DNA of 64,000 bases from Chiloscyllium plagiosum (lineage: Eukaryota): contig NC_057719.1 of the NCBI RefSeq assembly GCF_004010195.1, forward strand, positions 8,455,604 to 8,519,603. Direction: 5' to 3'. The translations under genes were made by a program, and so were the position numbers. The notes below the pieces were generated by a model. That model searched no databases. It was not told the DNA's origin and saw only the letters and a program-made list of their open reading frames with translations. Every line of letters starts with the position of its first letter. The stretch's first letter is position 1. Positions 3,681 through 57,278 of the stretch are shown piece after piece.

Positions 3681-3883
3681 TTGAGTATTGCTGAAAAAGG
3701 ACACATTTTATCAAAGCTTTTTTTATCTTGCACTTAACAGGATATTCTGCAAGAGTATAAATGCAAAGGGTTAAACCAACATTATTGGTGTAGTTTTTGC
3801 CTTGAATTTTTATTCTTGTGAAATGTCCTGATGAGTGCAAGATGAAAAACTTTTGACAAAATCTTTTCTTCAGCAATACTCAA
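3681..3883. mobile_element. Palindromic element carrying a hammerhead-like motif (family E)
   Basis: Termini ttgagtattgctgaa / ttcagcaatactcaa; imperfect inverted arms ~70 bp; related copies at ~23990-24050 and ~33915-33975. Confidence 0.7.
3824..3858 (+). ncRNA. Minimal type-I hammerhead ribozyme-like motif (family E, degenerate)
   Basis: UGUC-CUGAUGA-GUGCAAGAU-GAAA-AACUUUU-GACA; stem I UGUC/GACA; the sister copy at 24005-24034 has GAAAAGCUUC with palindromic AAGCUU. Confidence 0.5.
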
Positions 3884-4069
3884 ATTGGTTAAAGGCAATA
3901 ATAATGTTCACTTTCTTCTGTACCAGAGCAACACATAATTAAGATGGACCTTTGTTCATATAACACATACGTTTTTAAACTATATTCGCTATCTGCACTC
4001 ATTGGTGTTAGATACCACCAGGATTTGACAATCTCTTCACCCATTTCTGAAATTATATGCAAGAGTACA

Positions 4070-4672
4070 TTGAGTTTTGAAATTAGGAGAACATGTTGCG
4101 GCTGTACAGGACATTGGTTAGGCCACCTTTGGAATACTGTATGTAATTCTGGTCTCTGTGGCATAGGAAGGATGTTGTGAAATTTGAAAGGGTTGAGAAA
4201 ACATTTACAAGGATGTTGTCAGGATTGGAGGGTTTGAGCTTAGGGAGAGGCTGAATAGGCTGGGACTGTTTTCTCTGGAAGCTGAGGGGTCACTTTACAG
4301 AGATTTATTAAATCATGAGAAGCATGGATAGGGTGAATAGACAAGGTCTTTACCCCAGGTGGGGGACGAGGGGGTGTCTAAAACAAGAGGGCATTGGTTT
4401 AAAGTGGGAGGGGAAAGATTTAAAAGGGGCCTAAGAGTCAATATTTTCACTCAGGGAGTAGTGCGTGCATGGATGAGCTGCCAAAGGAAGTGGTGAAGGC
4501 TGGTACAATTACAGCACGTAAAAGGCATCTGGATGGGTATACGAACAGAAAGGGTTTAGCGGAATATGAGCCAAGTGCTGGCAGATGGGACTAGATTATT
4601 TTAGGATATATGGTCAGCATGGATAAGTTGGATCAAAGGGTCTGTTTCCATGCTGTACATCTCTATGATTCT
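4070..4672 (+). mobile_element. CR1/HER1-like LINE 3' fragment
   Basis: Degenerate C-terminal ORF2 (LVRP.LEY..FWS...RLNRLGLFSLE) and tail ctgtacatctctatgattcta. Confidence 0.85.
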
Positions 4673-5544
4673 ACTTAGACAACTAAACATAGATAATAAA
4701 TGATAGCAATTCCAGAAAAATATTTTTAAAAATGCACAATATGCATATTTTAAGAAACCAAAGGAACAAAATGAATACTTCATTTTTTAAAAAAAAAGTC
4801 ATTCTATCCTTTTAGGATTTTTAATAAATCATTTAACTTATTTGATTTTGAAGGATGAGGGAACACATATTCTGCAGTCTGTTTCTCCTCGTGATGATTT
4901 CTATATGGTTGGGGATATATACAGTCCGGGGCTCCACAGGGGACTCATTGATACATGTCTTGGATATTGTGTCACCATGGAAACTGGGCCAAGCCACAGG
5001 CAGCTGCAAACTTGCATTAAGGTCATTTTCTTGTGCTAGCATTGAGCGATAGGGACAGAGTAACTTGGAAATCGAGAATCACTGGAAGATTATATTGGCT
5101 AAATGCAAGAGAGGCTGCTTTCATATGCACAAAGAGTTCGGTGTTTGAAGTGGTTAAATCTCTTTCATGGTGATGGCTGTGCATTTATGAGAAGGACTCA
5201 TTTAATATCTTTGCCATTTTATAAGATCAGTCTGCATAAAAATTTCCTTTTACAATGGCAACTGACCCAAACCGCTCCTATTCTTAGACTTTTAATTATG
5301 TTAATCACACTGCTCGGGTGTGTTATGATATACCTCCAGGGCTGGACCGACTTGAACCAGGCCCTATGTTCTTAGATTTTTGCATGTTAAAAATCCTGTA
5401 AGAATGATAAGTTTTTAACAGCCTAATTTTAGAATCTTGTGGCACAATGGTAGTGTCCCTACTTTGGGGCCAGAAGGTCTTCATTCAAGTCTAACCAGCT
5501 TCAAGGGTATGACATAACATGCCTGAAGAGGTTTATTCTTGCTA

Positions 5545-6245: not shown

Positions 6246-6279
6246 CGCAGTCTAGGAAGATTTAATTGAACTTTATTGT

Positions 6280-8112: not shown

Positions 8113-8303
8113 CCATGATGGAGGTGCTGGTGTTGGACTGGGATGGACAAAGTCAGAAGTCACATGACACCATCTTATGGTCCAACAGGTTTATTTGAAA
8201 TTTATTTCGAAGCAGTGCTCCTTCATCGTTTCATCTGACGAAGGAGCAGCACGCTCAAAGCTTGTGATTGCAAATAAACCTGTTGGACTACTGACTTCGT
8301 CCT
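8113..8303. mobile_element. Palindromic hammerhead-bearing element (family B) with 10-bp TSD
   Basis: Inverted arms gtccaacaggtttatttg (8180-8197) / caaataaacctgttggac (8271-8288); CUGACGA-AGGAGC...GCUC-AAAGCUU at 8235-8263; flanked by caaatttaag at 8103-8112 and 8304-8313 inside an old LINE 3' end. Confidence 0.75.
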
Positions 8304-10438: not shown

Positions 10439-10846
10439 GAGGTAAAAACAATGACTGCAGATGCTGGAAACCAGATTCTGGATTAGTGGTGCTGGAAGAG
10501 CACAGCAATTCAGGCAGCATCCGAGGAGCTTCGAAATCGACGACTGGGCACCTCCTAGCAGAGCGCTTCAGGGAACATCTCCGAGACACCCGCACCAATC
10601 AAACACACCGCCCCGTGGCTCAACATTTCAACTCCCCCTCCCACTCTGCCGAGGATATGGAGGTGCTGGGCCTCCTTCACCTCCGCTCCCTCACCACTAG
10701 ACGCATGGAAGAAGAACCCTCTAGCTTATCTCTCCACGCTTCAGGCTCTCTGCCTTTATTCCTGATGAAGGGCTTTTGCCCGAAACGTCGATTTCGAAGC
10801 TCCTCGGATGCTGCCTGAACTGCTGTGCTCTTCCAGCACCACTGAT
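10439..10846 (+). mobile_element. Penelope-like element remnant (family A): inverted pLTR piece + GIY-YIG C-terminal fragment + pLTR
   Basis: LAERFREHLRDTRTNQTHRPVAQHFNSPSHSAEDMEVLGLLH...TRRMEEE (R..EH and E motifs of PLE GIY-YIG nucleases); 10480-10542 inverted relative to 10786-10850; 16-bp direct repeat ccagcagtcacttaag at 10423-10438 and 10847-10862 inside a CR1 3' end. Confidence 0.85.
10758..10793 (+). ncRNA. Minimal type-I hammerhead ribozyme (family A, intact core)
   Basis: AUUC-CUGAUGA-A-GGGC(UUUU)GCCC-GAAAC-GUC-GAUU; predicted cleavage after 10789; stem III reduced to palindrome ACGU. Confidence 0.75.
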
Positions 10847-12399: not shown

Positions 12400-13030
12400 T
12401 TCTGCAGCGAGTAACTGACCTCCTGACTCCCCAAAGCCAGTCCACCATCTACAAGTGTGTGATGGAATACTCCCCACTTGCCCTGGATGGGTGCAGCTCC
12501 AACAACACTCAAGAAGTTTGACACCATCCAGGACAAAGCAGTCCCTCGGTTCCAAAGCCAGAGCCACTTCCATCCAGAAGGGCAAGAGTAGCAGATTCAA
12601 GGCAGCAGTACCAACCACAAGCACCCCCACCAAGTCACTCACCTCCCTGACCATCAGTGTCTAAGTTCTGGAATTCCCTCCTTAACAGCCTTCTGGATCT
12701 ACCTCCACTAAATAGCCTGCAGCTCACTATCACCTTCTCAAGGGCAATAAATGTTAGCAAAGTTTGAGAAGATTTGTAGCCCAGGTTCAGGTTCTGGATG
12801 TAGGTTTGCTCGCTGAGCTGAAAGGTTTGCTTTCAGATGTTTTGTCACCCTACGAGGTGACATCATCAGTGAGCCTCCGGATGAAGCACTGGTGGTGTGG
12901 CCCGCTTTCTATTTCTGTGTTTGGGTGTCCTTGGGTTGGTGATGTCATTTCCTGTGGTGACATCAATTCCTGTGGTACCAGGCAATAAATTTGGCCCAGC
13001 CAGTGACGCCCATGTCCTGAGAATGAAAAA
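12400..13030 (+). mobile_element. CR1/L2-superclade LINE 3' end interrupted by a minus-strand Penelope-like pLTR (~12760-12975)
   Basis: Frame-broken VMEYSPLA.W..AAPTTLKKFDTIQDKA; tail gggcaataaat...ccagccagtgacgccc; insert carries CUGAUGA-UGUCACC(UCGUAG)GGUGAC-AAAACAUC on minus. Same LINE at ~20900-21360(-), ~34205-34520(-), ~7150-7430(-). Confidence 0.65.
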
Positions 13031-14775
13031 TAAAACTGCCATGTTTCTCCAGAATGTTGGGTTTTTTTCAATCTCCAGTATCTTGCTTATATCTTACTGG
13101 ATTTTTAAAATATGAATTCGTCAGATGCAGGGCGTCAACTTCTAAGCTATTATTTAGTGTCCACCTGCAGGGGTATCTGAGGTGCTGATAGCTGTGTGCC
13201 TTACACAAGGAGAAAGCAGATACTGGAGATCAGAGTCCAAACATATGGCCTGGAAAAGCACAGCCAGTCAAGCAGCATCCAAGGAGCAGGTGAGTCGACG
13301 TTTTGAGTATAAGCTCTTCATCAGGAATGTCCTTATATCAGGCTGACTCAGAGGGCAGTTAAGAGTCAACCACATTGCTGTGATTCTGTAGGCCAGACTA
13401 GGTAAGGACAGCAGATCATCGACCCTGAAGGACGTTTGTAAGCCAGGTGTAATTTTACAACAATCTGTTGATTCCATTTTAGCAAAACATATTTTCGAAG
13501 GATGAGGAGGGATCTGATTGATAGGCCTGGATAGAGTAGGCATGGAGAACCAGTAGGAGAGACAAGGACACCAGGGCACAGCTTCAGAGTGAAGGGATGA
13601 CCCTTCAGAACTGAAATAAGGAAGAATTTCTTCAAGCAGAGGATGGTGAATCTGTGGGACTCATTACCATAGGGGGCTGCGGCTGAATCATTGTACATAT
13701 TTAAGACAGGGGTATACAGATACGGGGTGGGGGTGGTTTCAAAGGTTATGGGGATAAAGCAGGAGAATGGGGTTGAGAAACGTATCAGCCATGATCGAAT
13801 GGCAGAGCAGACTTGATGGGCCCAATGGCCTAATTCTGCTCCTGCAACATATGGACTGATTACAGATTTATTAATTAATTCTTTGACGTTTCCTGGTGGG
13901 ATTTAGACTCATGTCTGGAGCAATAATCCAGACCTCTGGAGTAAGGGTCTGATTGCACAGAAATGTAAGTCGCTGATCTCTCCTTTCAAACTGGGGCATG
14001 GCTTTGTCCCTGCTGCTGAACACTGTTTCTACATTCTCCTGCCTCTGCGACCAGTCGCTTACATCTCAAGTTGCTTTTGATCTGTTTCCCCTGAGTGTCT
14101 CAGCCCCAAGGGCTTCAATCATTTCTTTCTGCTAATGTCTGTGCTTGTAACCTCTCGAAGATCTTGGATTCAATTCAAGTTTCATCTTCAAGATAACTGA
14201 GGCTGGTAATTGTATTCTTCAAGTGAAATTTCTCAGAAGTGATTAGATTTGAACAGCCTTGTGCAATTTCTGCAACTTTGAATCGGAGTAGAAGTTTATA
14301 TCTGTTATGAAAAAAAAATCATCTTTGTTTAGCTAAAGGATTGAGATTACATGCTCCAGACTGAGGATTGCAGAACTTTACAGCACGGAGAGACTTTGAC
14401 AGAGGAGATTTTGTGTCGAGACCGAAGCCCTTTGCTACTAGTCTGTGCCCTCTGACTGCACACTTTTGGTTAAGCTTGCTATATTCCTCCAGCCTCCTGC
14501 TTGTCTACTTTCAATTCCAGAATCTGCAGTTCTTTTTCCTCTTTTGGGTCAAATAAACTCAGTAGATAATTTCTAATCAGTCTGTTCAGAGATGTTATTA
14601 CGCAATCCTTGAGCAGGTAGGATTTGAAACTGGGCGTCCTGTCTGAGAGCTGGGGTCATTACCACTGTGAGAGTCCTGGTAAACTAGGAGAGATATTTTC
14701 TAATCAACCTGTTCAGAGATGCTATTACACACCTCCAGAGCAGGTGGGACTTGAACTGGGGTCTCCTGATCCAGA

Positions 14776-14896
14776 TGGAGGGTCTATGCCCGAAATGTCG
14801 ATTCTCCTGCTCCTCGGATGCTGCCTGACCTGCTGTGCTTTTCCAGCACCACACTCTCGACTCTGATCTCCAGCATCTGCAGTCCTCACTTTCTCC
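14776..14896 (+). mobile_element. Family A pLTR fragment with 14-bp TSD, inserted into a short tRNA-derived element
   Basis: gcccgaaatgtcgattctcctgctcctcggatgctgcc...ccagcatctgcagtcctcactttctcc flanked by tctcctgatccaga at 14762-14775 and 14897-14910. Confidence 0.8.
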
Positions 14897-19940: not shown

Positions 19941-20095
19941 TCTAAATATCTAAATTCATTCACACAGGTACAAACTGTCATTCATAGTGTTTGTAATGTG
20001 CATGTATATTTCAGAACTACGTGGAACATTGGTATATATGGAATAGTTTGAAAACTTTCTGGATTGAAAGTGGTTTTATCAAGGAAGTAAGTCAA

Positions 20096-20262
20096 TCACT
20101 ATAAATGCCAGAGGAAAGATCACAGAAGCGCTTCACAGGAGGCTCCCAAGCACTGAGGATGTCACCTAGACAGGGGACGAAACGTCTGCAACACAAATTC
20201 CCAGCTCGGCGAACAGAACCACAACAACGAGCACCCGAGCTACAAATCTTCTCACAGACTTT
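20096..20262 (+). mobile_element. Solo pLTR of a Penelope-like element (family D) with 12-bp TSD
   Basis: Near-identical to 26343-26472; flanked by gaagtaagtcaa at 20084-20095 and 20263-20274. Confidence 0.85.
20150..20189 (+). ncRNA. Minimal type-I hammerhead ribozyme (family D, intact core)
   Basis: GCA-CUGAGGA-U-GUCACCU(AGAC)AGGGGAC-GAAAC-GUC-UGC; stem I GCA/UGC; copies at 26396-26435(+) and 25772-25811(-) have GUU at the cleavage site. Confidence 0.75.
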
Positions 20263-21734: not shown

Positions 21735-22150
21735 TTTCAGAAACAAAAACTGAAATCACTGGAAAAACTTAGCAAATCTTCAGAACTGTTCTGAAGAAGG
21801 ATCACTAGGCCTGTAATGAGTTAAAAAATCACACAACACCAGGTTTATTTGGAAGCATTAGCTTTCAGGGCACTGCTCCTTCATCAAGTGGACATCAGGT
21901 AGAGTGGGTTTCGCTTCGGCGGGTCGGTGTGGACTTGTTGGGCCGATGGGCCTGTTTCCACACTGTAATGTAATCTAATCTAATCATTAGCTTTCAGGGC
22001 ACTGCTCCTTCATCAAGTGGACATCAGGTAGACCTGTAATATTGAGTCTGATTTCCCTTCACAGATGCTGCCGGACTTGCTAAGTTTCTTCCAACAATTT
22101 CTGTTTTCATTTCAAGTTTCCAGCATCCACAGTTCTTTGGGATTTTTGGA
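21735..22150. mobile_element. Nested insertion: family C element > family B pLTR > truncated HE1 tail
   Basis: cctgtaat repeated at ~21810 and ~22033; 48-bp direct repeat 21856-21903 / 21985-22032 flanking HE1 tail 21904-21984. Confidence 0.75.
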
Positions 22151-25100
22151 CAGCTAACTTTTGACTGCCTGTTGAAATGGCTCATTCACTGAGGGCCAGA
22201 GCTCAACCTCTCAAGGGCGATAAATGTTGCCAGTCTGACCCAGCAACATTGCAGGAATCGAATAAGTGAAACACAGCACTCAGGCCCTCGGGGGAAGGAG
22301 TGTGACAGGCAGGCTGAGGAGATGTTCAGGAGAGCCGGACAAAATTGAAGCTCGAAGAGAAAGAAAGAGAGATTTCAGAAAGCATTAGGAGGCTGTAATA
22401 TTAAAGGGTTGAGGTGACATTGTGTGTCAGAGTGTGAGACTTGATAGTTAATGATTATCTGCCCAGGGACAAACGTTACGACCTGCAAGACATTGTGACA
22501 TATACTTTCATTTTATGTTTCGAGCATTTACTCACATTACGATGATGGAGTGTCAGACTGAAACGATGCCCGGTGTACAGCGTTTGGCAGAAAGCCGTGA
22601 GACCAGAGTTAGCGGGAAGGAGGAGTGTGAGGTAGTGATGGAGAGAGAGGCTAACATTCCAGAATTTCACAGGAATTAAGGATAATTTTTTTAAAAAACC
22701 AATTGATTGGATTTGTTGTGCATTTTGTTTGAAAGTTTTATAAGACACAAAAATATAATTAGATTAGACCATAAGACATAGGAGCAGAAGGAGGCCAATC
22801 AGCCCATCGAGTCTGCTCCACTTCTTAATAAGATCACGGCTGATTGGATAATCCTCAACTCCACATTCCAGTCCTTTTCCCCATAACCCGCGATTCCCTT
22901 CCTGATTAAAGGTTTGTCCATCTCAGCCTGGAAAATACTTAATGACTCAACCTCAACAGCCCTCTGTGGTAAAGCATTCCACAGATTCACTGAGAGAATA
23001 AAATCCTCCTCATCTCCGTCTGAAGTATGTGACCCCATGTGGGATTCTTCCACAAGGGCAAGCACCCGTTCTGCATCTACCCTATCACGTTCCACGTGAT
23101 CCTTGTTTCTTTGTTGTTTTTAAATCATTCCCGGGATGAGGGTGTCACTGGCCGATCCCTATTTATTGCCCATCCCTAATTACTCAGAGGCCAGTTCACA
23201 GTCAATCACATTGTTGTGGGTGGAGTCACAGCCACATCATAATGGGACTTATCAACTTACTGAAGCCTCCCTGTGTCTGACCCTATCATAAAGCAGTGCC
23301 TATTTTCCAACTGGAGTCACTGAGCAACACTTCTAGTGTGCCTTATAATTTGCCTCCCTTGTCTAACACTGCTACCATCAGTCACTGAGACCCATGCATC
23401 TCTTCCCAAAACAGGCACTGACCCTGGGACCATCAGTGTTGGATGACCAGTTCCCAGTTACATGGAACACACGCACAGAGCCAGCAAGGTTCCTGGATCT
23501 CCTTTACCGTTCTAACTTCCCTCTCTCAAATTGTTTATGTGCCATTATTACTTATTTTTTAATTGAAATCAAATGTACAAAAAGTAAAACAAAATTCCTC
23601 TTGTGAAACCTTTCGCAACAATGGGAGAAGGACAGAGGTGGCAGATTCAGGAGCAAGTTCCTCTACAAGGTGCACACCATCCTGACTCGGAAGTACACAA
23701 CCTCTGGAGAATGTAGCAGTTAATGATGATTGACTGTTAACTGCCAAGCTTTGAACCCATGCAGGTAGATTTGATTTGTCAGGACACTGGTGGGAGAAGT
23801 AGACCAGCGAATGGCAATCCCCGATTTAGTTGAAATGAAACGTGTACATATCCTTTCTGTTCACAAAGAGCTGGGTATTAATGATTGTGCTCTCCGTGGA
23901 AACACGTCGACCAATTGAAAGCCCAGCTAACCAATCAGCGCTTTCCTTCATACAGTTTAAATGCTGGCTTCCCCCCCCACCCCCGATTTGGAATTCTTGT
24001 GATTCGTCCTGAAAAGTGCAAGATGAAAAGCTTCAAAATAAAACTTTTTTTTCAAGAAAAGGAAAGTTCCTGAATACTGTCCCTCACCACCTCCGTTCCC
24101 TTTAATTTCTGCAGCTACTGGGTGGAGTTCCGAGATCTGTGCATGACAACAACTGAAGAAACTGGAAGTGGATGTGTTGGCATGGCAACCGCTGTATACA
24201 GCCCCTCGGGTGGCCGCTCAGCTTAGGGAGAACATTGCTCAGCACCAGTCAACCTCCTCCAGCCCCCACCCACCCCAACGTCAACCCTCGGTGAGAGAAT
24301 GGTGTGGGGCTCTCTCACTCAGAAAGCTATTTCCCTTGGGTCTTCCTTCCAGAAGAACAGAAAGCTCCTTGCACATAACTGAAGGTGACTGGACAACAGT
24401 TAATAAAGCACATGGCATTCTCAGCCTCAGTAGGAGCAAGAGGTGATGTTGAATTTGTAGCAGACCCTGGTTAGACCTCAGCTGGAGTATTGTGTACAGT
24501 TGTGGGCACCACCTTATCGGAAAGACATGAATGCATTGGAGAGAGTGCAGAGGTGGGTTTAGTGGAATGGTACCAGGGATGAGAACCTTCAGCAGTGAGG
24601 TTAGATTGACGAAGTCATGGCTGCAGAGCTTCTCCTACCATTCCTATTTTCATGAAGGGTTACAGAAGGAAGGCGGGTGGATGACGTAGAGACACAGATT
24701 AGCCATGATCTAACTGAATATAGGAACAAACTTGAGGGGTTGAATGGCCTCCTCTGGTGCCTCATTCCCCTTAGAAGTGTTTGGTAAAAATAAAAACAAC
24801 CTTTTATTTTCAGATTAAGCCCTTTGCATTCAGTTTAATATGGAAAGGGAAGCAAAGTTAGAGTGACAATGTTGCATTAGGTTCGACTGTGAAAGGACCC
24901 CCATAACTCATAGCCACCACATTCACAAGTGATTTATGACAAGCTTTCAGATGAATGAAGCTCTGTCAGTGAAGTGCCATCAATGATGAGATATTTATTC
25001 AACAGGGAGTTCATTTTGCACTTCAAGTGCATTCTGAAAGGCATCTTGTAGATTGGACCGTGCACAGATAATTCACTGTGGTGAGCTGCGATCATTTTCG

Positions 25101-25736: not shown

Positions 25737-26472
25737 CTGTGGTTCTGTTCGCCGAGCTGGAAGTTTTTGTTGCAAACGTTTCGTCCCCTGTCTAGGTGAC
25801 ATCCTCAGTGCTTGGGAGCCTCCTGTGAAGCGCTTCTGTGGTGTTTCCTCCGGCATTTATAGTGGCCTGTCCCTGCCGCTTCCGGTTGTCAGTTTCAGCT
25901 TTGTTTAGGAAAAGCAGGAGGCGTAATCTGGGAAATTACAGGCTGGTGAAATTATTAGCTGTCTTCCTGTTTGTCCTATATAGTGTTTTGTGCAGTCCTT
26001 GCATGGATTTTGTACACTACATTAGTTTTGCTCATGCTGGGTATCGGACAACCCAGGACAAACAGGAAGACAGCTAACAATCCGCATCCATGAACATCAA
26101 CTAGCCACGAAACGCCACGACCAGCTATCCTTAGTAGCCACACACGCAGACGACAAGCAACATGAATTCGACTGGGACAACACTACCATTATAGGGCAAG
26201 CCAAACAAAGAACAGCCAGGGAATTCGTAGAAGCATGGCACTCATCCACAAACTCCATCAACAAACACATTGACCTGGACCCAATATACCGGCCACTACA
26301 GCGGACAGCTGAAACTGACAACCGGAAGCGGCAGGGACAGGCCACTATAAATGCCAGAGGAAACACCACAGAAGCGCTTCACAGGAGGCTCCCAAGCACT
26401 GAGGATGTCACCTAGACAGGGGACGAAACGTTTGCAACAAAAATTTCCAGCTCGGCGAACAGAACCACAACA
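25737..26472. mobile_element. Penelope-like element (Poseidon-like, family D): GIY-YIG endonuclease 3' region with inverted pLTRs, inside a CR1 fragment
   Basis: Plus frame from ~26056: GQTGRQLTIRIHEHQLATKRHDQLSLVATHADDKQHEFDWDNTTIIGQAKQRTAREFVEAWHSSTNSINKHIDLDPIYRPL...; minus ~25957-26040: NVVYKI-CKDCTKHYIGQTGRQL; pLTR copies 25737-25898(-) and ~26309-26472(+). Confidence 0.88.
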
Positions 26473-33520: not shown

Positions 33521-36009
33521 CTGTCTCTCCTTCTGTACCCACTCTCACCAAGACTCATGCTTTCCCCTCTCTCTCTTTATTGCCTGCAACACCTTCCCTC
33601 ATTCGCCCTCACCCAACCCAACTCCTCTCTGCACTGCCAACTCACTCACTTGGGACAACTACCAACAGTAACAGCCATTTCACTCCATTTCATCTCCTTC
33701 CATATCTCCCTGTCTCTCATTCCAGGAGGAAAACAGCCCTCGATAGGACAGAAAGAGCCACCAAAATTGTGGGCTATTAATGCTGGAAAATGCAGCAGCT
33801 AATTTGCACATTGCAAACTCCCATCAACAGCAATATGCTGGGGGAAAAAGGAAGTTTAATTTTGTGTTTCACGTGTTTTGGAAATTAAATTTACATTCGA
33901 AGGTGTAGCTGGAAGAAAAGTCACTTTTGTCAAATCTTTTCATCTTGCAATCAACAGGACAACACACAAGAATATCAATGCAAAGCTTAAAGAACATGTA
34001 GGTTAAACGAGAGGATGGTGCTGATTGGTTGGTAAGGTGTCTCTGGTTGGTACAGGTGTTGCTACGGAGCATTGGGCAATCAAAATTGATCAGAACAGGG
34101 AAGCAGCACTCCCATTGGTGCACCTGGATGTTAGCTACTCTTATTGTTACAACTGTATAGAATGTCAGTTAGGCCATGGCTAGAGTATTGTGAGCAGTTT
34201 TTTTAATAATTCATTTGTGGGTCATGGGCATCACTGGCTGGCCAGTATTGAAGCCCAACCCGATTTGCTCTTGAGAAGATGGTGGTGAGCTGCCTTCTTG
34301 AATTGCTGCAGCCCACTTGCTGCGGATTGACCCACAATGCCGGTAGGGAGGGAATTCCAGGATTTTGATCCAATGACTGTGAAGGATCGGTGGTATATTT
34401 CCAAGTCAGCGTGATGACTGGCTTGGAGGGGAACTTGCGGGTGATGGTGTTCCCAAGTACCTGCTGTCCTTCTCCTTCTAGATGGAAGTGGTCATGGGTT
34501 TGGAAGGTGCTGTCTAAGGGATATGATAGCACTGGAGAGGCTGCAGAGGGAGATTTACCAGTCTGGTGTCTGGCCTGGAGAGTTTCAATAATGAAGAGAA
34601 ATTGGACAGACTTGGAATTGCTTCCTCAGACAGAGGAGATTGAGAGGGGACATGACTGAGATGTATAAAATTAAAGTAGGCATAGACAACACCTTGAGTG
34701 AAACATTTCCCTTGAGTGAAAGGATCAATGACTGGGGCCCTTAGATTTAAGTGAAGGAGAAACTCTTTTCACCCAGAGGATGGTGGGAATCTGGATTCAC
34801 TGCCTGGAGCAGAAACCCTCATAACATTTTAGAATTATTTTGATGTGCACTTGCAGTGCCCCAGGCATAGAAGGCTATGGGTGAAGTGCTGGATAATGGG
34901 TTTAGTCATGCAGTCATAGAGATGTACAGCATGGAAACAGACCCTTTGGTCCATGCCGACTAGATATCCCAACCCAATGTAGTCCCACCTGCCAGCACCC
35001 GGCCCATATCCCTCCAAACACTTCCTATTCATGGACCCATCCAAATGCCTCTTAAATGTTGCAATTGTACCAGCCTCCACCACATCCTCTTGCAGCGCAT
35101 TCCATATCGGATTCTGTGCTGTGAACTTTGCCCAAACAGGTTCCTCCAAGATCAGTGTGAATTTCACTGCTTGTTAATTTTCCCAGAGGCACTCAGATAT
35201 CCAGCGATATGTGAATTCAAACATCAAAAGCAGTAACTGTAATAGAATAGTTCAGTGATTGATTTTGACTGGTGCAGATGCAATGGGCCGAAGGGCCTTT
35301 CTGTTCTGTCGATTGACTTGATGACTCTATGACTCCCATCGACTCGATAATGGGATTGAATCGTACTTAAAATTATTAGTTGATGTCATGATCAGCTGTC
35401 AGGATTTCAAAATACTGTGGAGATTTTTAACTTGTAATTTTAAAACGTGTCAACTTGTAAAATTTTAAAAAGTCTGTGACGGTACTGTAGCTTTAAGAGA
35501 GATGTGCTCTGTACTGTTTCTCTCGAAGAGACGTGTGGCCACAGTGGTAGTGAATGTCTGCTTCAGAAGCAGTGGGTAAACCGTATAGGCTCTAAGTTAT
35601 TTATTAATCAGACTGGGTGGAGACAGGCTCACACTGACCCAGGTTTTTAGTTTTGCTTTCAGTCAAGGTTTTTTGGAATTGAAGCTGCTAGATATTGCTC
35701 TCTCTCTCTCTCTGCAGCAAAAAGCATCAGTTCTCTCTCTGCTGCTCGATTGTTTCTTTCAGTGTTCACTTTCCCTAGACTGGAGGAGATAGCACATGAG
35801 GAAAATCTGTTTTACTGAATTTGCTTTTGCTAACGGTGCGTTGCTGGGATGCTACTATGTTGAAACACTTGGTGATAAGTAAATAATATTATTTTATTAA
35901 ATATTACAATAGAGTTACGCCAATCCTTCTTTTTTGTTTGTATTTTGAGTGCATTGTAAGAACAAAGTGTATTTTGCTGAAAGCCTAGTAGTTCAATCAA
36001 TCGAATCAC

Positions 36010-40125: not shown

Positions 40126-40281
40126 GGGTTTAGATCAGAGTGGTGCTGGAAAAGCACAGCAGGTCAGGCAGCATCCGAGGAGCAGGAAAATTGACGTTTT
40201 GGGCAAAAGCCCTTCATCAAACTCTGATCTAAAGCCTTGATCTAAACTCTGATTTCTAGCATCTGCAGTCCCCACTTTTTC
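40126..40281. mobile_element. Family A pLTR inverted element with 14-bp TSD
   Basis: ctatgatcgtattg (40112-40125) / ctatgatcatattg (40282-40295). Confidence 0.8.
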
Positions 40282-43900: not shown

Positions 43901-44950
43901 AGGATGGTGAGAGTGAGGATAGGGCCAATCAAGGATAGTGGAGGGAACTTGTGTCTGGAGTCGGAGGAGGTGGAGGAATGAACACTTTGATTCAGTATTC
44001 ATTACTAAGAGGACCTTGTCATTTGTGAGGACAGCATGAAAACAGGCTGATATGCTCAAACAGTTTGATGTCAAGAGGGAGGATTGCTAGAACTTTTGAA
44101 AAACATGAAAATAGATAAGTCTCCTGGGCCAAACAGGATATATCCTAAGTTACTACGGGAAGCAAGAGAAGTGCTTGCTGTGCCTTTGTCAATAATCTTT
44201 GTGTTCTCACTATCCACTGGAGTAGTACCAGATGATTGGAAGGTGGCAAATGTTATCCCCTTGTTCAAAAAAAGGAATAGGGATAATCCTGGGAATTCCA
44301 GACCAGAATACAGAATTGGCTGGCCCATAGAAGACAGAGGGTAGTTCTTGTTGAAAAGTGGAATTTGGTGACCAGTGGTGTTCCACAGGGATTTGTTCTG
44401 AGACCTCTGCTCTTTGTGATTTTTATAAATGACTTGGATGAGAAATTGAAAGGGTCTGTTCGTAAGCTGGCCGATGACATGAAGGTTGGTGGAGTGGTGG
44501 ATAGTGTGGAGCTGAAAATGTGTTGCTGGAAAAGCGCAGCAGGTCAGGCAGCATCCAGGGAACAGGAGAATCGACGTTTCGGGCATAAGCCCTTCTTCCA
44601 CAGCCCTCCATACAGATAGTATAAGTTAGGAAAATAAGAAATAAAGCTAAAAAGATGGATATTACAGTCTTTCTTTCAGGGCCCCCCTGGTACCCAACCA
44701 GTGCCATCTTTGTGGAGGGCTGTTGCAGGTTGCAACCGGACATTGACAGGATGCAGACCTGAGCTGAGAAGTGGTAGATGGAATTCAATCTGAAAAAGTG
44801 TGAGGTGATTAATTTTGATAGGTCCAAATTGAATGCAGAATACAGGGTTAAAGGCAGGATTCTTGGCAGCATGGAGGAACAGGGGGATCTTGGGGTCCAC
44901 ATCCATAGATCCCTCAACGTTGTCACCCAAGTTGACAGGGTTGTTAAGAA
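40940..44950 (+). mobile_element. Near full-length decayed CR1-clade LINE (ORF1 zinc-finger/coiled-coil + SGNH esterase; ORF2 APE + RT), with nested insertions
   Basis: 41221 MEARAVACSSCRMWE...CEKC; 41676 CLPSARVRDV...VHIGTNDI...VVISGLLP...DGLYLNWRG; 42260-43400 YFNARN, RGGKRGGGVALLIR, VMGDFNFP; 44084-44900 DKSPGP, DWKVANVIPLFKK, GVPQGFVL.PLLFVIFINDLD, LADD. Confidence 0.92.
42673..43120 (-). mobile_element. Younger CR1 3' fragment inserted antisense into the large CR1
   Basis: (catagaa)n tail; RGDLIEVYKMIRGLDRVD and EQRDLGVHVHRS on minus; host reads gttgttat | gttgtcatgggtgacttcaac across the insertion. Confidence 0.85.
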
Positions 44951-45444: not shown

Positions 45445-45480
45445 AATCGACGTTTCAGGCAAAAGCCCTTCATCAGGAAT
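45445..45480 (-). ncRNA. Minimal type-I hammerhead ribozyme (family A, intact core)
   Basis: Minus strand AUUC-CUGAUGA-A-GGGC(UUUU)GCCU-GAAAC-GUC-GAUU. Confidence 0.65.
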
Positions 45481-46240: not shown

Positions 46241-49200
46241 AAATGACGATCCAGTCAGCACTACCCACATCTCATGAATAAAAGAAATCCCATCCATCAC
46301 GCAGATGTAGGTGTCCTGATCTCCCGACATCTCAGAGTTCATGGCTTTCCTGTTTCTTTTTGAAGCCTCCACCAGCCACACAATCATCCTAGTCTTCCCG
46401 GTTTTCCTGATCTTAAATTCCAGCGGCTCCCTCTCTGCCCCACTATTCACAAGTCTGTTTTCACCAATTTCCATTCAGTTGACAGAAATCTTTTCCTTGA
46501 ACATTCCATTACACCGGAGCAGATTAGGCCGTTCGGCCCATCAAGTCCACTCTGCCATTCAATCATTGCCAATATGTTTATAACCCATTCTCCTGCCTTC
46601 GCCCTGTAACCCTTGATCTCTTTACTAATCAAGAAACGAATCCCCTCTACACCTCATTGTCTCCTTTAAGACACTTGTTTAAGCCCACGTGTTTTTTTTA
46701 CTCCTTTTGATAACTCCCCATCTCAGCAATAATTGATATTTTGATTTTCACTGACGTATCTTGACCTGTTTTTCTACATTAAAGGGCTTAGATAAATATG
46801 AGAACCTGGAGTACTAGACCAGCGACATTGCCATGATGCCCCTACATCGCTCTCCTTCTTAAAGTTCACATTCAGTTAACTCCCCCTGCTCTCACCTATT
46901 CCAGTTTTCTTCGGTTTGAAATAATGCGCAACTTTCTTGAGTGCTTGCATCATTTTCTTTCTATCTCCTCCCTTATCCCAGGCTAGCGCATTTGATTGTC
47001 ACAATTCATGGTGAGACATGAAGCAAGATGTAAGCCTTTCTCTACAACATCTGTAATTTGCAACAAATCTACTCACTTTTGCCTAGGTTTCCAGTTGTGT
47101 GCAAAGTCTCTAATGAGACATTTCAATGTCCCAGCCATTTCTCAAACAAGTACAATGCTCTCAGTCAGCAGCTTGAACATCCGTGAGGTACAATACCTTA
47201 TCACTATGATTTGATTTTCTTCTGATTACTGCTTACACATGAGCTAGAGGCACCGTTTTTCAGAGAATTGGCTACTATCACAGGACAAGGAGGTTATCAT
47301 CAGCCATTCAACTCTCCTCTATCACCCCAAACAGATCACAGCTCATCTGTATCTTAACTGTATGTTTCTGCCTTGGTTCTCACAGAATCATAGAATCCCT
47401 ACAGTGTGGAAACTGACCATTTGGCCCAACAAGTCCACACCAACCCTCTGAAGAGTAACCCACCCAGACCCATTCCTCTACCCCTATTACTCTACATTTC
47501 CCCTGACCAATGAACCTAACCTCCATATCCCTGAATACTATGGGCAATTTATCATGATCAATTCACCTAACCTGCAACCCTTTGGACTTTGGGAGGAAAC
47601 CAGAGCACTCAGAAAAAACCCATGCAGACACGGGGAGAATGTGCAAACGCAGCGCGGACAGTCGCCCGAGGCTGGAATTGAACTCGGGTCCCTGCCGCTG
47701 TGAGCCAACTGAGCTACCATGCCGCCTGGCTCTTTAATAACCTTAGTTCACAAAAATCCATCAAGAAACAAGTGGCAATGCTCATATCCAGAAAGCACAG
47801 CATTGGAAAGCCACATCTGATGTTTCTTGCATTAAGGTATAATACTGGACTAATAAATGTGGTCACTCATTAACTGTGTAGTTTAGACTCTGGGAGTCAG
47901 GAATGTGATAGGACTGGAGTAGACCCTACAAGTGTAGCCAAAATGTGTGGCGTTGGAAAAGCACAACAGGTCAGGCAGCATCAGAGAAGCAGGAGAATTG
48001 ACGTTTTGGGCATAAGCCCTTCATCAGGAACGTTGGTGGGAACAGGGATGAGAGATGTATGGGGAGTGGGAGTGGGACTAGGGGGAAGGTAAATGTGAAG
48101 GTGATATTGACCTGTCCGACCTGACCATCTTCCTTCCCACCTATCCACTCCACTCTCCCCTCCGACCTATCAGAATCACCCCCGAACTTCATCCACCTAT
48201 CACCTTCCCAGCTACTTTCCCCCCAGCCCCACTCCCAACGTGTATCTGCCATTCCCCTTCCCCCTCCACATTCCTGATGAAGGGCTTATGCCTGAAGGGC
48301 TGATGAAGGGCTTATGCCTTTCCAGCGCCTCCCTTTTAAGACTCTGTTTCTTCAACATCTCACTTTCTCCAACAAATGGAGCTTCAGACAGAGAAACACT
48401 CATATTCTATAATCCTTCCAGAGGCGCTGGTGAGGAACTCTGCCGTCAGCTTAGCTGGTCGTCCATCGACCTCAAGTGGGTAAAGGGAAGAAATACTCAT
48501 GGGGCAGCAGTGATTTATTTCAGAGGGTTGACAAATTCAGTTTTCTGGTGACTTGCACCCTCGGGAGGCTAGATGGGAGGCATTTTCCTTTAGGTCCAAC
48601 TGACCCCAATGGTTGGACCACGCTTGTCAGGAACTTGGTTGTCTTGAGAATTGCACCAATATCATCCAGCCTCTCAATGGCTTTACGTGTCACATTATCC
48701 CAGAGTTTTGTCAGCCTTTGGAAGCAGTGGCGAGACGTCCGTTCTCAGCCCTGACTTCCTCACTTACAACTCGGCACATAAATTGGTTCCCCCTGGTCAG
48801 AAATGGTGTGAACGAGTGTCACCATTCACAGTACTGCAAATTCTGACTCATCAAAATCAGACCACTATTCCTTCAATTGTCCCTTTGGGGAATTCCAGAT
48901 CATAATAATTGTGCGCATGAGAGTTCTTCTTCTCATCCGTTTTGTGGATTTTTTTTTTGCAAATTATTTTAAATCTGTGCTCTGATTGCTGATGCTTCCG
49001 CTAGTGATTAAAATGCCCCCTTTTTTAAGATCAATCATCACATTTCATATTGTTATTAAACTTCCATTCCACCTTCTCTGGTCATTTCATATGATTGAAG
49101 TCCCTCATTCTTGACACCAAACTTGTAAATTTCATTGGCACATCAGTTTTCTTTTCCTGTTTTAGTCTTCCAAAGGTTTATTGCCCATCCTTAGTTACAG

Positions 49201-49333
49201 AGAGGGCAGTTAATAGACAGCCATATTATAATGGATCTGTAGTCACATGCTGGCCAGACTGGGTAAAGACAGCAGATTTCCTTCTCGACAGGACGACTTT
49301 AATCTGTTTAAAAATTCATCCACAAAATGTGGA

Positions 49334-55600: not shown

Positions 55601-56136
55601 GAGGTTTATAAAATCATGAGGGGCATGGATAGGGTAAATAGACAAGGTCTTTTCCCTGGGGTGGGGGAGTCCAGAAGTAGAGGGATTAGGTTTAGGGTGA
55701 GAGGGAAAAGATTTGAAAGGGACATAATGGGCAATGTTTTCATGCAGAGGGTGGTGCATGTGTGGAATGAGCTGCCAGAGGAGGTGGTGGAGGCCTGTTA
55801 CCAAGAGAAATCACCCTCAACGCGGCGCCTCAGTGATTTCCCACGGACTTTGTAGGGTTTATCATGAATACCTTTGATCTTTCATTGTAAAATATATCCT
55901 CAGCCTCAGCTGGTGCATTAAGAGCAGTAGAGTTTAGCTTGAGTTTGTGGTTTCCTATTGGTTGTTGTGTCCCTTTTATATCTTGCCCTCTCACCCTAAA
56001 CCTATGCCCTCTACTATTGGTCCCACAACCAACATTGTTAACACCAGATCAAAGCAAAATCCTGCAGAGTCTGGAAGTCTGAAGCAATAACAGAGAAACT
56101 CAGCAGATCTGGCAGCATCTGCAGGGAGAGAGACAG

Positions 56137-56174
56137 AGTTAATGTTTCGGGTCCAGTGACCCTTCTTCAGAACT
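56137..56174 (-). ncRNA. Minimal type-I hammerhead ribozyme motif (family C)
   Basis: Minus strand AGUU-CUGAAGA-A-GGGUC(ACUG)GACCC-GAAAC-AUU-AACU; stem I AGUU/AACU, 5-bp stem II; lies in palindromic element ~56045-56245. Confidence 0.65.
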
Positions 56175-57278
56175 GTTCAGAACTCAAGTTCTGCTGAATG
56201 GTCACTGGACTCAAAATATTAATTCGGTTTCTTTCCTCACAGATTATTCTGGCTGGTCACTGAACAGTCTTTAATTTCTGAGGCTGATATACTTTACAAT
56301 GAAAGACTGAAGGTATTTGTGATAAGCCCTACAAAGTCCATGGGCAATCACACCATGCCTGAGGACTGCGTTGAGGGTGGTTTCTCTTGGTAACAGGCAA
56401 TGGCCCAATCAGCTGGATCTCACCGCCCGAGCTCTTTCTGAAGCAGATCCTCTCTAACTCCATGCTCATTTCTTCCAATGCTCTGCCCCTCTTCCATGGT
56501 TACATTCAAGTCAGGCTGTCCGACGAGACGGAGCACTGTGTCCATCAAAGTTCTCACAGCCTTTAGAAAGTGAGGTGGGTACTGTGGGGGAAACAGTGCT
56601 TTATTACCCCCTCATTCTGCTCTTCCTACCTCCCGCTCACTTTTGATGGTTCGCATTGCCCATATTTAATTGGCTTACATGGGCAGTTTTACTGGGGGGG
56701 CGGTTAATAGTTTAAAAAAAAGTCATGATGATTTGTTGGTGGGAAAGTCATCCCATTGTGTGCGACAACATTTCCGGATATTAAAGAAAAGTAAATCAGA
56801 CCTCTGAGGGCTTTGTGATGCAATGGCAATGTCCCTACTCTTCAGCCAGGAGGCCTGGCTTCAAGTCCCACCTACTCCAGTGGTGTGTAACAAAATATCT
56901 AAACAGTTTGGTTAGGAAATAGTATAAAACAGACCCTGAGGGATTCTTGTGGTGTAGTGGCAATGCCTGTACCTCTGGGCTGTGGAGGCCTGAGTTCAAG
57001 TCTCACCTGCTCCAGGAGTGTGTCATAACAGGTTAATTAGTGGACCCCAAATGGCTACACAGACATTTTACTGGTGGAGGTTGATATGTTAAAAACAAAG
57101 TAAACATCACAGTGAATTGGTCGTGGAAGCTAGTCAGTTGTATGTAAGATTACTTCCAGAGGTAAAACATAAAGCAGACCCAGCTCCATTTTGGTTTAGC
57201 CCCTCCCTGCTCTCCCTACCCTGCCCTCAATTTAAATGGGTTGAATTGCTTGACACAGACTTTGAATGTGAAAACCTG

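What the first reader, a model, noticed from the sequence alone, without database searches (positions are those of the whole stretch)
3681..56245. At least five families of minimal hammerhead ribozyme motifs dispersed through the window
Seen: the cores CUGANGA and GAAA recur with different, family-specific flanking helices. A: GGGC(UUUU)GCCC, GAAACGUC (10758-10793, 27642-27677, 45445-45480, ~10 more decayed loci). B: GGAGC(..)GCUCC-type, GAAAGCUA (8232-8266, 21856-21890, both decayed). C: AGUU/AACU + GGGUC(ACUG)GACCC (56137-56174). D: GCA/UGC + GUCACCU(AGAC)AGGGGAC (20150-20189, 26396-26435, 25772-25811). E: UGUC/GACA + GAAAAGCUUC (3824-3858, 24005-24034). In each, stem III is reduced to a palindrome (ACGU, AGCU, AAGCUU). 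Established: Penelope-like elements and retrozymes carry minimal type-I hammerheads that need dimerisation via palindromic stem III. Inference: roughly 25-30 loci in 60 kb imply a very large and probably unannotated ribozyme-bearing repeat population in this shark; B, C and E have no coding partner in this window.
Basis: partly seen in the sequence, partly recalled or inferred. Interest (0 to 1): 0.82.

Follow-up and report, generated by a model that had tools for sequence, protein, structure and literature searches.

The report
Penelope retroelement tails carrying minimal hammerheads
The recurring motifs are the worn tail ends of Penelope-like jumping genes that litter this shark-type genome, each carrying the small hammerhead RNA motif already described for such elements and predicted to cut RNA only when two copies pair, so the catch is real but of a known kind.

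Summary
Five are fully intact (10762+, 20153+, 26399+, 45476-, 25808-), against none in 200 shuffles.

Families A, B, C and D meet the published definition of the minimal hammerhead of Penelope-like elements (PLEs):
- both catalytic boxes;
- an unpaired base before helix II;
- a G10.1-C11.1 pair;
- a palindromic stem III (ACGU or AGCU);
- compensatory changes between families.

Family E keeps the boxes, helix I and a palindromic stem III, but helix II is only two pairs, so it is a hammerhead-like core only.

All five families lie 0-600 nt downstream of reverse-transcriptase/GIY-YIG open reading frames. They show shared 3' ends, ragged 5' ends, target-site duplications and head-to-head fold-backs, as PLE insertions do.

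Exact-match copy numbers in the genome are very high: A 17,044; A2 6,484; D 8,312; D2 1,695; the B tail 9,564.

Self-cleavage was not tested. Neither RNA reads nor the 5' ends of genomic copies mark the predicted cut site.

This is a new host for a known kind. Earlier reports of this scan reached the same reading on other pieces of this genome.

The parts
10758..10793 (+). Family A minimal hammerhead, intact (AUUC CUGAUGA A GGGC UUUU GCCC GAAA CGUC / GAUU). The predicted cut is after 10789.
   Evidence: passes the descriptor; 45.4 bits
10543..10716 (+). Remnant of a PLE GIY-YIG endonuclease reading frame directly upstream of the A motif. The open frame 10438-10818 runs on through the hammerhead.
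   Evidence: (88% identity to P0001 residues 371-428)
45445..45480 (-). Family A hammerhead, intact (G.U at 10.1-11.1)
   Evidence: 43.6 bits
27642..27677 (+). Family A: both boxes intact, stem III ACGU decayed to AUGU. It is the right arm of a head-to-head fold-back.
   Evidence: the hairpin appears as a sub-threshold 'mir-3158' match
27611..27644 (-). Family A: left arm of the fold-back, 5' part of the core lost, G12 changed to A
26588..26623 (-). Family A (UUAU loop): boxes intact, stem III decayed by CpG loss
47996..48031 (-). Family A, G12 changed to A
13293..13328 (-). Family A, decayed
14768..14803 (+). Family A, decayed core. The insertion has a 12-nt target-site duplication.
28184..28219 (-). 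Family A, decayed. This copy extends about 190 nt upstream.
40189..40223 (-). Family A, decayed (C3 lost, G12 changed to A)
44573..44598 (-). Family A/A2, partial (5' box lost)
48270..48305 (+). Family A, rearranged 5' halves without GAAAC
20149..20190 (+). Family D hammerhead, intact (GCA CUGAGGA U GUCACCU AGAC AGGGGAC GAAA CGUC / UGC). The predicted cut is after 20186.
   Evidence: 59.7 bits
26395..26436 (+). Family D hammerhead, intact (GUU site)
26029..26412 (+). C-terminal 128 residues of the family D RT/GIY-YIG reading frame. Its TAG stop lies in loop 2 of the hammerhead.
   Evidence: 87% identity to P0002 residues 336-463
25771..25812 (-). Family D hammerhead, intact. It belongs to the inverted, 5'-truncated partner of the copy at 26395. 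The arms 25735-25900 and 26307-26472 are 98% complementary.
   Evidence: (I11)
12832..12873 (-). D3-type hammerhead, decayed (G12 changed to A, ACGU to ACAU). Helix I is UCA/UGA and helix II is fully paired.
56137..56174 (-). Family C hammerhead: boxes and helices intact, stem III ACGU decayed to ACAU
   Evidence: 42.1 bits
18106..18222 (+). Family C tail with a decayed 3' half of the motif
58041..58123 (+). Family C tail carrying only the 3' half of the motif
8232..8266 (+). Family B, decayed (G12 lost). It lies head-to-head with 8183-8227.
8183..8227 (-). Family B, decayed inverted partner
21856..21890 (-). Family B, decayed (C3 changed to U, helix II damaged)
21988..22020 (-). Duplicate of the same B copy, made by a SINE insertion with a duplication of about 45 nt
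3824..3858 (+). Family E hammerhead-like core: boxes and helix I present, helix II only G.U plus U-A, stem III palindrome lost in this copy
3678..3766 (-). Family E, decayed head-to-head partner
24005..24034 (+). Family E, decayed (CUGAAAA)
33925..33961 (-). Family E, decayed (CUGUUGA)

Best explanation
The roughly 30 motifs are copies of the 3' tails of several lineages of Penelope-like retrotransposons (PLEs). Each carries that lineage's minimal type-I hammerhead, which is predicted from published work, and not tested here, to self-cleave only when two copies pair through the palindromic stem III.

Shown here:
- The motifs belong to at least seven abundant sequence families: A, A2, C, B, D, D2/D3 and E.
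- Each family has a shared 3' end and ragged 5' ends. Family A copies have target-site duplications. Many copies have an inverted, 5'-truncated partner placed head to head.
- Longer copies carry a reverse-transcriptase/GIY-YIG reading frame upstream on the same strand. In family D that frame ends with a stop codon inside loop 2 of the hammerhead.
- Between families, helices I and II change by compensatory substitutions, while the catalytic boxes, the unpaired base after A9 and the stem III palindrome stay fixed. That pattern indicates selection on the RNA fold in the master elements.

Inferred:
- In transcribed, tandemly arranged master elements the ribozyme would process multimeric RNA, or serve another role tied to the RNA.
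- The copies in this window are dead-on-arrival, mostly decayed insertions with no role of their own.
- Family E is the tail of an old PLE lineage. It keeps the boxes, helix I and a 1-bp stem III capped by AGCU, but has only a 2-bp helix II. It is likely a weakened or non-canonical derivative.
For: Motif anatomy and chance:
- Searches give the sequences and the box count against shuffles.
- 5 intact motifs against 0 in 200 shuffles.
- 17 covariance-model hits.

Genome abundance, with a reversed-pattern control of 0 each time:
- A 17,044; D 8,312; C 256; B tail 9,564; A2 6,484; D2 1,695.

Covariation across 10 family representatives:
- 90.7% of cells are paired, against 69.4 +/- 3.2 in shuffles (0 of 500 reach it) and 22-41% when partners are slid.
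- 6 of 13 pairs change on both sides.
- Example: the third pair of helix I is G-C (3 rows), U-A (3 rows) and C-G (2 rows).

Link to PLEs:
- Window residues 10543-10716 are 88% identical to the LYIGET...EH region of P0001. P0001 scores 21.7 bits for GIY-YIG against a 22.6 cut-off, plus weak RVT_1.
- At least 11 of 30 family A loci have P0001-like frames upstream on the same strand.
- Family D: the frame is 87-91% identical to P0002, whose precomputed domains are RVT_1 and PF26215. It reads VVYKIPCKDC..YIGQTGR, and its stop lies in loop 2.
- Family B: 6 of 19 longer loci have P0001-like residues 245-466 upstream on the same strand.
- Family E: the read-through of L158 aligns to P0015 residues 489-603 (33% identity, E 5e-16). 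P0015 scores 34.8 bits for RVT_1 and 19.7 bits for GIY-YIG.

Insertion style:
- Shared 3' ends and variable 5' ends.
- Target-site duplications of 8 nt or more in 10 of 41 family A copies, against 3 of 38 controls.
- Minus/plus pairs 70-1100 nt apart.

Literature:
- Min-HHR definition, inverted pairs and low in vitro activity as dimers: PMC4209133 (parts 1-2 of 4 read).
- 5' truncation, pseudo-LTRs and inverted copies: PMC8557442 (passages).
- Review of the dimer model: PMC6765202 (passages).
Against: - No cleavage was tested.
- Rfam's hammerhead families do not match, even at E<=10.
- RNA reads from one poly(A) single-cell run cover family A on both strands with no pile-up of read starts or ends at the predicted site.
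- Of 106 tail-anchored family A copies, none begins at the predicted cleavage product's first base (+28), and only 3 begin within 3 nt of it. The same holds for B, with 0 of 121 at +29.
- In the published Anolis PLE, ribozyme mutants inserted normally in vitro, and no reads ended at the cut site (PMC11167929, passages).
- Helix I is short: 3 bp in B and D, and 3 of 4 with a U.U mismatch in A.
- The double-hammerhead fold is not the predicted minimum-energy dimer.
- Pfam GIY-YIG scores are all just below the curated cut-off, except for the distant relative P0014.
- Nine of the ten rows in the covariation alignment were picked with a descriptor that demands pairing. This inflates the percentage paired.
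- No full-length tandem master element was seen. In many loci the upstream stretch reads N.
Confidence: 0.9

Rival explanations
1. The short units (hammerhead plus a tail of about 100 nt, with their own target-site duplications) are a separate non-autonomous element. It would be a dispersed SINE-like or retrozyme-like parasite of PLEs, copied in trans from its own short RNA. They would then not be simple 5'-truncated PLE insertions.
For: - Tail-anchored family A copies start at -4 to -1 relative to C3 in 32 of 106 cases. Family B copies start at -4 to -2 in 22 of 121 cases.
- 10 of 41 such A copies have flanking direct repeats of 8-16 nt, against 3 of 38 controls.
- A 2026 preprint argues that animal retrozymes derive from PLE pseudo-LTRs (10.64898/2026.07.22.740005; abstract and two passages seen).
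Against: - The short and long copies share the same tails and 3' ends at over 90% identity.
- 5' ends are spread continuously from -300 to +90.
- No tandem arrays contain the motifs.
- For B the direct-repeat test equals its control, 4 of 31 against 4 of 30.
- Part of the peak at -4 may be where homology between subfamilies ends, not where copies end.
- Overlapping loci were not de-duplicated.
Confidence: 0.2
2. The motifs are chance look-alikes or generic hairpins (microRNA-like or MITE-like inverted repeats) and not ribozyme motifs.
For: - Rfam in E-value mode reports only sub-threshold microRNA-type hairpins at 27584-27704 and 26796-26888, and no hammerhead family.
- Many copies form long fold-backs.
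Against: - 0 descriptor hits in 200 shuffles, against 5 observed.
- 0 hits in 1000 shuffles even with helix II relaxed to 2 bp.
- Compensatory changes occur between families.
- RT/GIY-YIG frames lie upstream.
- The fold-back arms are unequal and share 3' ends, unlike terminal inverted repeats.
Confidence: 0.02
3. Some copies have been taken over by the host as working intronic or UTR ribozymes, like the conserved hammerheads of amniote introns.
For: - Five copies in the window are still intact.
- RNA reads cover the family on both strands.
Against: - The intact copies belong to the youngest, most numerous families, so being intact is explained by age.
- No read ends mark the cut site.
- No orthologous conservation could be tested, because no relative's genome is held.
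Confidence: 0.03

Closest known systems
Minimal hammerheads (min-HHR) in the pseudo-LTRs of metazoan Penelope-like elements (Cervera and De la Pena 2014, PMC4209133)
   Same: - CUGANGA and GAAA boxes, and an unpaired base between A9 and 10.1.
- A G10.1-C11.1 pair and a palindromic 15.2-16.2 pair with no loop 3.
- Helix I of 3-4 bp and helix II of 4-7 bp.
- Several consensus families per genome, with covariation between them.
- Mostly solitary truncated copies, some in opposite-strand pairs 100-700 bp apart.
   Different: - The host is a shark-type genome, which that paper does not list in the parts read.
- Copy number is several-fold above its 'remarkable' cases (about 4,000 in coelacanth, about 9,000 in Xenopus): at least 33,791 exact matches to five patterns here.
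- In family D the reading frame's stop codon sits inside loop 2.
Canonical endonuclease-bearing PLEs (Penelope/Poseidon, Neptune, Nematis clades; Craig et al. 2021, PMC8557442) and the Anolis element PAc (Frangieh et al. 2024, PMC11167929)
   Same: - An RT followed by a C-terminal GIY-YIG domain.
- Heavy 5' truncation and an inverted 5'-truncated neighbour.
- A hammerhead next to the reading-frame boundary, and a 3' end about 80-110 nt beyond the cut site. PAc starts reverse transcription 111-118 nt into the next unit.
- No sign that cleaved RNA is the template.
   Different: - Clade membership was not determined.
- No full-length or tandem unit was examined.
- In PAc the hammerhead overlaps the start of the reading frame. 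In family D here it overlaps the end.
'HHR_core' motifs of Naiad PLEs (Craig et al. 2021, methods passage)
   Same: Family E has both catalytic boxes at the right spacing but does not fit the stem-loop descriptor for helix II.
   Different: Family E also keeps a 4-bp helix I and a 1-bp stem III capped by the palindrome AGCU. It sits behind a C-terminal GIY-YIG frame, not an N-terminal one.
Non-LTR retrozymes of animals (Cervera and De la Pena 2020, PMC7229834, search listing only; Li et al. 2026 preprint)
   Same: Type-I hammerheads with a short palindromic stem III. A proposed PLE origin.
   Different: Retrozymes are tandem arrays that give circular RNAs. The copies here are dispersed single units or fold-backs, with no array.

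Membership tests
PLE minimal hammerhead (min-HHR) | Conserved boxes CUGANGA and GAAA at hammerhead spacing | tested here: met
   Both boxes are intact in 10762+, 45476-, 27646+, 26619-, 20153+, 26399+, 25808-, 56170- and E 3828+. They are lost or mutated in the other loci.
PLE minimal hammerhead (min-HHR) | Unpaired nucleotide between A9 and 10.1 | tested here: met
   It is A in families A, A2, B and C, and U in D, D2 and D3. Family E has no clear equivalent.
PLE minimal hammerhead (min-HHR) | G10.1-C11.1 pair and a helix II of 4 bp or more | tested here: met
   - A-D: the 10.1-11.1 pair is G-C in 7 of 10 rows and G-U in 3.
- Helix II is 4 bp (A), 5 bp (B, C) and 7 bp (D, with one A.G mismatch).
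- Family E does not meet this: only G.U plus U-A.
PLE minimal hammerhead (min-HHR) | Palindromic 15.2-16.2 with no helix III hairpin, which forces a dimer | tested here: met
   - ACGU in A, C and D; AGCU in B.
- E has A-[AGCU]-U.
- Several window copies lost it through CpG decay.
PLE minimal hammerhead (min-HHR) | Helix I of about 4-5 bp closing the junction | tested here: inconclusive
   - 4 of 4 pairs in A2, C and E; 3 of 4 with a U.U mismatch in A; only 3 bp in B, D and D2.
- The pairs that exist do covary.
PLE minimal hammerhead (min-HHR) | Compensatory changes between consensus families | tested here: met
   6 of 13 pairs change on both sides. The covariation score is 0.564 against 0.202 +/- 0.041 in shuffles (0 of 500 reach it). 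Caveat: the rows were chosen with a pairing descriptor.
PLE minimal hammerhead (min-HHR) | Location in the repeat or UTR flanking a PLE reading frame | tested here: met
   - A. D. B. E: (weaker: one read-through copy plus one tblastn hit).
- C: only through homology of its tail to family A and one weak hit (L065).
PLE minimal hammerhead (min-HHR) | Self-cleavage at the H17 site, as a dimer | not testable with these tools
   Indirect looks found no mark of cleavage: read ends and the 5' ends of genomic copies.
Endonuclease-bearing Penelope-like element | Reverse transcriptase fused to a C-terminal GIY-YIG endonuclease | tested here: inconclusive
   - RVT_1 passes the cut-off in P0012 (35.3 bits) and P0015 (34.8 bits).
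- GIY-YIG stays just under the 22.6-bit cut-off in P0001 (21.7), P0015 (19.7) and L048 (16.2).
- The relative P0014 passes, at 28.8 bits.
- The motif IYCI..C..C..LYIGETGR...EH is visible in the sequence.
Endonuclease-bearing Penelope-like element | 5'-truncated insertions with an adjacent inverted 5'-truncated copy, and pseudo-LTR tandems | tested here: met
   Truncation and inverted partners are seen. Tandem pseudo-LTR units were not looked for.
Rfam hammerhead families (type I, II, III, HH9, HH10; family names recalled, not returned by any search) | Match to the curated covariance models | tested here: not met
   No hit at the gathering score or at E<=10. This would be expected if those models include a helix III hairpin, which these motifs lack; that point is recalled, not checked.
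Non-LTR retrozyme | Head-to-tail tandem array of short units, each with a hammerhead | tested here: not met
   none of the 9 tandem-repeat rows is an array of hammerhead units. The B pair results from a SINE insertion.

The most novel reading that the evidence does not exclude
The 'hammerhead plus tail' units of about 135 nt that begin exactly at the ribozyme's 5' edge are a distinct lineage, mobilised in trans. The 5' end of their RNA is set at that edge and not at the canonical cut site. In these sharks the hammerhead would then act as a 5'-terminal structural or recognition module of a dispersed PLE parasite, not as a cutter.
Probability: 0.12. Interest if true: 0.55.

Novelty: new member of a known kind. 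Interest (0 to 1): 0.25.

Why it matters
It adds a cartilaginous-fish genome to the hosts of PLE minimal hammerheads, with tens of thousands of perfectly preserved motifs. That is several times the highest counts reported in the 2014 survey. The set of families shows clear compensatory changes.

Such a genome is a good natural data set for two open questions: what the PLE hammerhead is for, and why neither published RNA data nor the genomic copies here record its cleavage.

For annotation, these tails should be masked as PLE. Fragments of the PLE reading frame already sit inside database protein models of related sharks that bear host-gene names.

It does not reveal a new kind of system.

Tried and rejected
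1. Rfam, at gathering and E-value thresholds: no hammerhead family matched. The sub-threshold microRNA-like hits are PLE fold-backs.
2. A fuzzy regex search timed out. It was replaced by blastn.
3. Pfam on 181 stop-to-stop frames of the window (31 of 120 aa or more and 150 of the 184 shorter ones of 75 aa or more): no GIY-YIG hit, and only two RVT_1 hits, both belonging to other elements. The remaining 34 frames, all beyond about 52.6 kb, were not scanned.
4. Pfam on frameshifted pieces of PLE frames: nothing above the cut-off.
5. MITE or DNA-transposon reading of the fold-backs: rejected because the arms are unequal, the 3' ends are shared and RT/GIY-YIG frames are present.
6. A reading frame starting at the AUG inside CUGAUGA, as in the Anolis element: in family A it stops after 17 codons.
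7. Nearest-neighbour energies of the double-hammerhead fold: feasible at -10 to -18 kcal/mol, but never the minimum-energy dimer. Not discriminating.
8. Sequencing runs: no RNA holder is listed.
9. One raw-read poly(A) single-cell RNA run laid on 10440-10900: reads on both strands and no place where molecules begin or end. A library of this kind is a poor test of a 5'-OH end. A second run gave 0 reads.
11. A 'fossil' test for cleaved templates, using the 5' ends of tail-anchored copies: no peak at the cut site.
12. Target-site duplications for B copies that start at the ribozyme edge: no better than control.
13. Literature on shark hammerheads: full-text searches for 'hammerhead ribozyme' / 'Penelope-like' / 'shark' and 'Penelope' / 'shark' / 'transposable elements' / 'Chiloscyllium' listed no paper on the subject among those shown. 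One 2026 preprint includes a single Chondrichthyes genome in a retrozyme survey. Its supplements are closed and may name the species and families.


Full report
**Observation**

The window is G000:C10:8455604-8519603 in a 3.56-Gb genome. A3, C and D3 lie on the minus strand, and the predicted cut sites after 10789 and 20186 are correctly placed.

Four independent counts bear on chance and on the total:
- The bare box pattern CTGANGA-N8-30-GAAA occurs 15 times. Shuffles give 6.15 +/- 2.37, and 0 of 100 reach 15.
- My RNAmotif-like descriptor asks for: boxes; an optional unpaired base; helix II of at least 4 bp; a palindromic stem III followed by U and H; and helix I at 3 of 4 pairs or better. 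It finds five intact motifs (10762+, 20153+, 26399+, 45476-, 25808-). It finds none in 200 dinucleotide shuffles and none in the reversed sequence.
- A covariance model built from ten natural representatives of A, C and D finds 17 loci at E<=1. Four of them are training rows.
- B and E add four loci each, and A and C add several fragments.

Most copies are worn: G12 changed to A, CpG decay of ACGU to AUGU or ACAU, or loss of the 5' box.

**The families**

- A: AUUC-CUGAUGA-A-GGGC-UUUU-GCCC-GAAA-CGUC/GAUU.
- A2: a sister family found in the fetched loci. It has a CUGU loop and a perfect helix I, AUUC/GAAU.
- C: AGUU-CUGAAGA-A-GGGUC-ACUG-GACCC-GAAA-CGUU/AACU. Its tail is visibly homologous to that of A.
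- B: sampled through its tail only, so without bias towards the motif. Most of the 30 sampled copies read CAC-CUGAUGA-A-GGAGC-AGC-GCUCC-GAAA-GCUA/GUG.
- D: GCA-CUGAGGA-U-GUCACCU-AGAC-AGGGGAC-GAAA-CGUC/UGC.
- D2: CCA...GUUACCU-AGCC-AGGUAAU...UGG. D3: UCA.../UGA.
- E: the majority of 37 copies read UGUC-CUGAUGA-GUGCAAGAU-GAAA-AGCU-UU/GACA.

Exact-pattern counts in the genome, with a reversed-pattern control of 0 each time:

| Family | Exact matches |
|---|---|
| A | 17,044 |
| A2 | 6,484 |
| D | 8,312 |
| D2 | 1,695 |
| C | 256 |
| B tail | 9,564 |

**RNA-level constraint**

I aligned ten family representatives and counted the hammerhead pairs.
- 90.7% of cells are standard pairs. Shuffles give 69.4 +/- 3.2 (0 of 500 reach the observed value), and slid partners give 22-41%.
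- Six of 13 pairs change on both sides.
- Examples: the third pair of helix I is G-C, C-G or U-A; the first pair is A-U, C-G, U-A or G-U; helix II positions 2 to 4 each show three or four pair types.
- The boxes, the unpaired base and the stem III palindrome do not vary.

One caveat applies. Nine of the ten rows came from a descriptor that demands pairing, so the percentage paired is inflated. Five of the sequence types (A, A2, C, D, D2) were each counted in the genome at hundreds to thousands of exact copies, so for these the compensatory differences are between real lineages.

**What the repeats are**

- Copies of each family share a 3' end about 60-140 nt beyond the start of the motif and have ragged 5' ends.
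- Direct repeats of 9-13 nt were seen by eye flanking A copies. By count, 10 of 41 A copies have repeats of 8 nt or more, against 3 of 38 controls.
- Minus/plus pairs 70-1100 nt apart are common. In the window they are 25771-25812 / 26395-26436, 27611-27644 / 27642-27677, 8183-8227 / 8232-8266 and 3678-3766 / 3824-3858.

Longer copies carry a reading frame upstream on the same strand.
- Family A: window 10543-10716 is 88% identical to residues 371-428 of P0001. P0001 is a 486-residue protein that its source labels Chiloscyllium punctatum. It holds FTCTSTNIIYCICCSRCGLLYIGETGRLLAERFREH, and scores GIY-YIG 21.7 bits against a 22.6 cut-off, with weak RVT_1. At least 11 of 30 A loci show such remnants.
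- Family D: the frame reads VVYKIPCKDCTKHYIGQTGRQL.... It is 87-91% identical to P0002, whose precomputed domains are RVT_1 and PF26215. It ends ...LPSTEDVT followed by TAG, and that TAG lies in loop 2 of the hammerhead.
- Family B: 6 of 19 longer copies have P0001-like residues 245-466 upstream, ending about 580 nt before the motif.
- Family E: copies are only 68-74% alike. One copy, read through its stops as X, aligns to residues 489-603 of P0015 (33% identity, E 5e-16). P0015 scores RVT_1 34.8 bits and GIY-YIG 19.7 bits.

An RT with a C-terminal GIY-YIG nuclease, heavy 5' truncation and an inverted truncated neighbour are the published hallmarks of endonuclease-bearing Penelope-like elements (PMC8557442, passages). 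A hammerhead in their flanking repeat is the rule (PMC4209133, parts 1-2 of 4 read).

**Family E**

Its majority sequence passes a relaxed descriptor: helix I 4 of 4, a palindromic stem III, and helix II of at least 2 bp. That descriptor found nothing in 1000 shuffles of the window. The arrangement is therefore not chance.

Helix II, however, is only G.U plus U-A, so E fails the min-HHR definition. It resembles the 'HHR_core' class that Craig et al. describe for elements whose boxes do not fit the stem descriptors. Only 3 of 37 sampled copies pass the relaxed descriptor, and no window copy does.

**How it likely works**

Shown: these are PLE tails, and selection acted on the hammerhead fold in the master lineages.

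Inferred from the literature: the motif cleaves as a dimer through the stem III palindrome. It does so weakly in vitro, and it may process multimeric transcripts of tandem elements (PMC4209133; PMC6765202, passages).

Evidence here does not show cleavage:
- One raw-read poly(A) single-cell RNA run covers family A on both strands with no pile-up of ends.
- No tail-anchored copy begins at the expected first base of a cleaved RNA: 0 of 106 for A and 0 of 121 for B.

This agrees with the Anolis element. There, ribozyme mutants inserted normally, and no reads ended at the cut site (PMC11167929, passages). Reverse transcription there starts 111-118 nt into the next unit, which fits the tail of about 80-110 nt seen here after the cut site.

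**Unexplained**

The 5' ends of tail-anchored copies pile up at the ribozyme's 5' edge. They fall at -4 to -1 in 32 of 106 A copies and at -4 to -2 in 22 of 121 B copies. For A this is partly backed by target-site duplications. It could reflect a real RNA 5' end, a preferred stop or template switch, or the point where homology between subfamilies ends. Overlapping loci were not de-duplicated.

**Verdict**

It is a new host, with a very large population, for a known kind of element. Earlier reports of this scan on other pieces of the same genome reached the same reading.

Noticed in passing
window 26395-26436 with 26029-26412; also L048 and L033: In family D the RT/GIY-YIG reading frame runs into the hammerhead. 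Its last six codons (STEDVT) cover the 5' strand of helix I, the CUGAGGA box and the 5' strand of helix II. The TAG stop lies in loop 2. The database protein P0002 ends at the same residue.
   Followed up: yes
held loci L001-L170 and the window (families A and B): The 5' ends of tail-anchored copies cluster 1-4 nt upstream of CUGANGA: 32 of 106 for A and 22 of 121 for B. None starts at the predicted cleavage product's first base. 10 of 41 such A copies have direct repeats of 8 nt or more, against 3 of 38 controls.
   Followed up: partly
window 21856-22032 (minus strand): A SINE-like fragment with a LINE-type tail sits inside a family B copy. It is flanked by a duplication of about 45 nt that includes the whole decayed hammerhead.
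   Followed up: partly
proteins P0003 and P0013: Database proteins that their sources label MAP3K7 isoform X3 and 5'-nucleotidase domain-containing protein 1 isoform X3 of Chiloscyllium punctatum contain the family D endonuclease segment, at 92% and 89% identity. PLE fragments may be included in host gene models.
   Followed up: no
window 27584-27704 and 26796-26888: The sub-threshold Rfam microRNA-type matches (mir-3158, mir-9186 and others) are long hairpins formed by head-to-head PLE tails.
   Followed up: partly
window 18978-19082 and 19809-19939, around the N run 19090-19787: An (AC)n-type microsatellite flanks the only N run of the window. The family D copy at 20094-20271 begins about 155 nt after it. 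PLEs are reported to favour microsatellites (PMC8557442, passage).
   Followed up: no
window 41628-42158 (+) and 44287-44616 (+); 2511-3263 (-): Remnants of other retroelements: a GDSL-esterase/OSK-like frame with an RVT_1 frame downstream on the same strand, likely one LINE, and a separate RVT_1 frame on the minus strand.
   Followed up: no
window 62115-63182 (-): A 355-residue open frame with a Pfam Syndecan domain hit (28.1 bits against a 25.2 cut-off). It is probably a host exon.
   Followed up: no
loci L001-L030 and others: In 11 of 30 family A loci, 330-1450 nt upstream of the motif read N (withheld). A full-length element could therefore not be examined.
   Followed up: no
window 9653-9865, 38294-38363, 58951-59020 and others: There are many copies of a SINE whose sequence looks tRNA-related by eye, and of a repeat ending ...GGGCCTGTTTCCACACTGTA. 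Both are unrelated to the hammerhead families.
   Followed up: no
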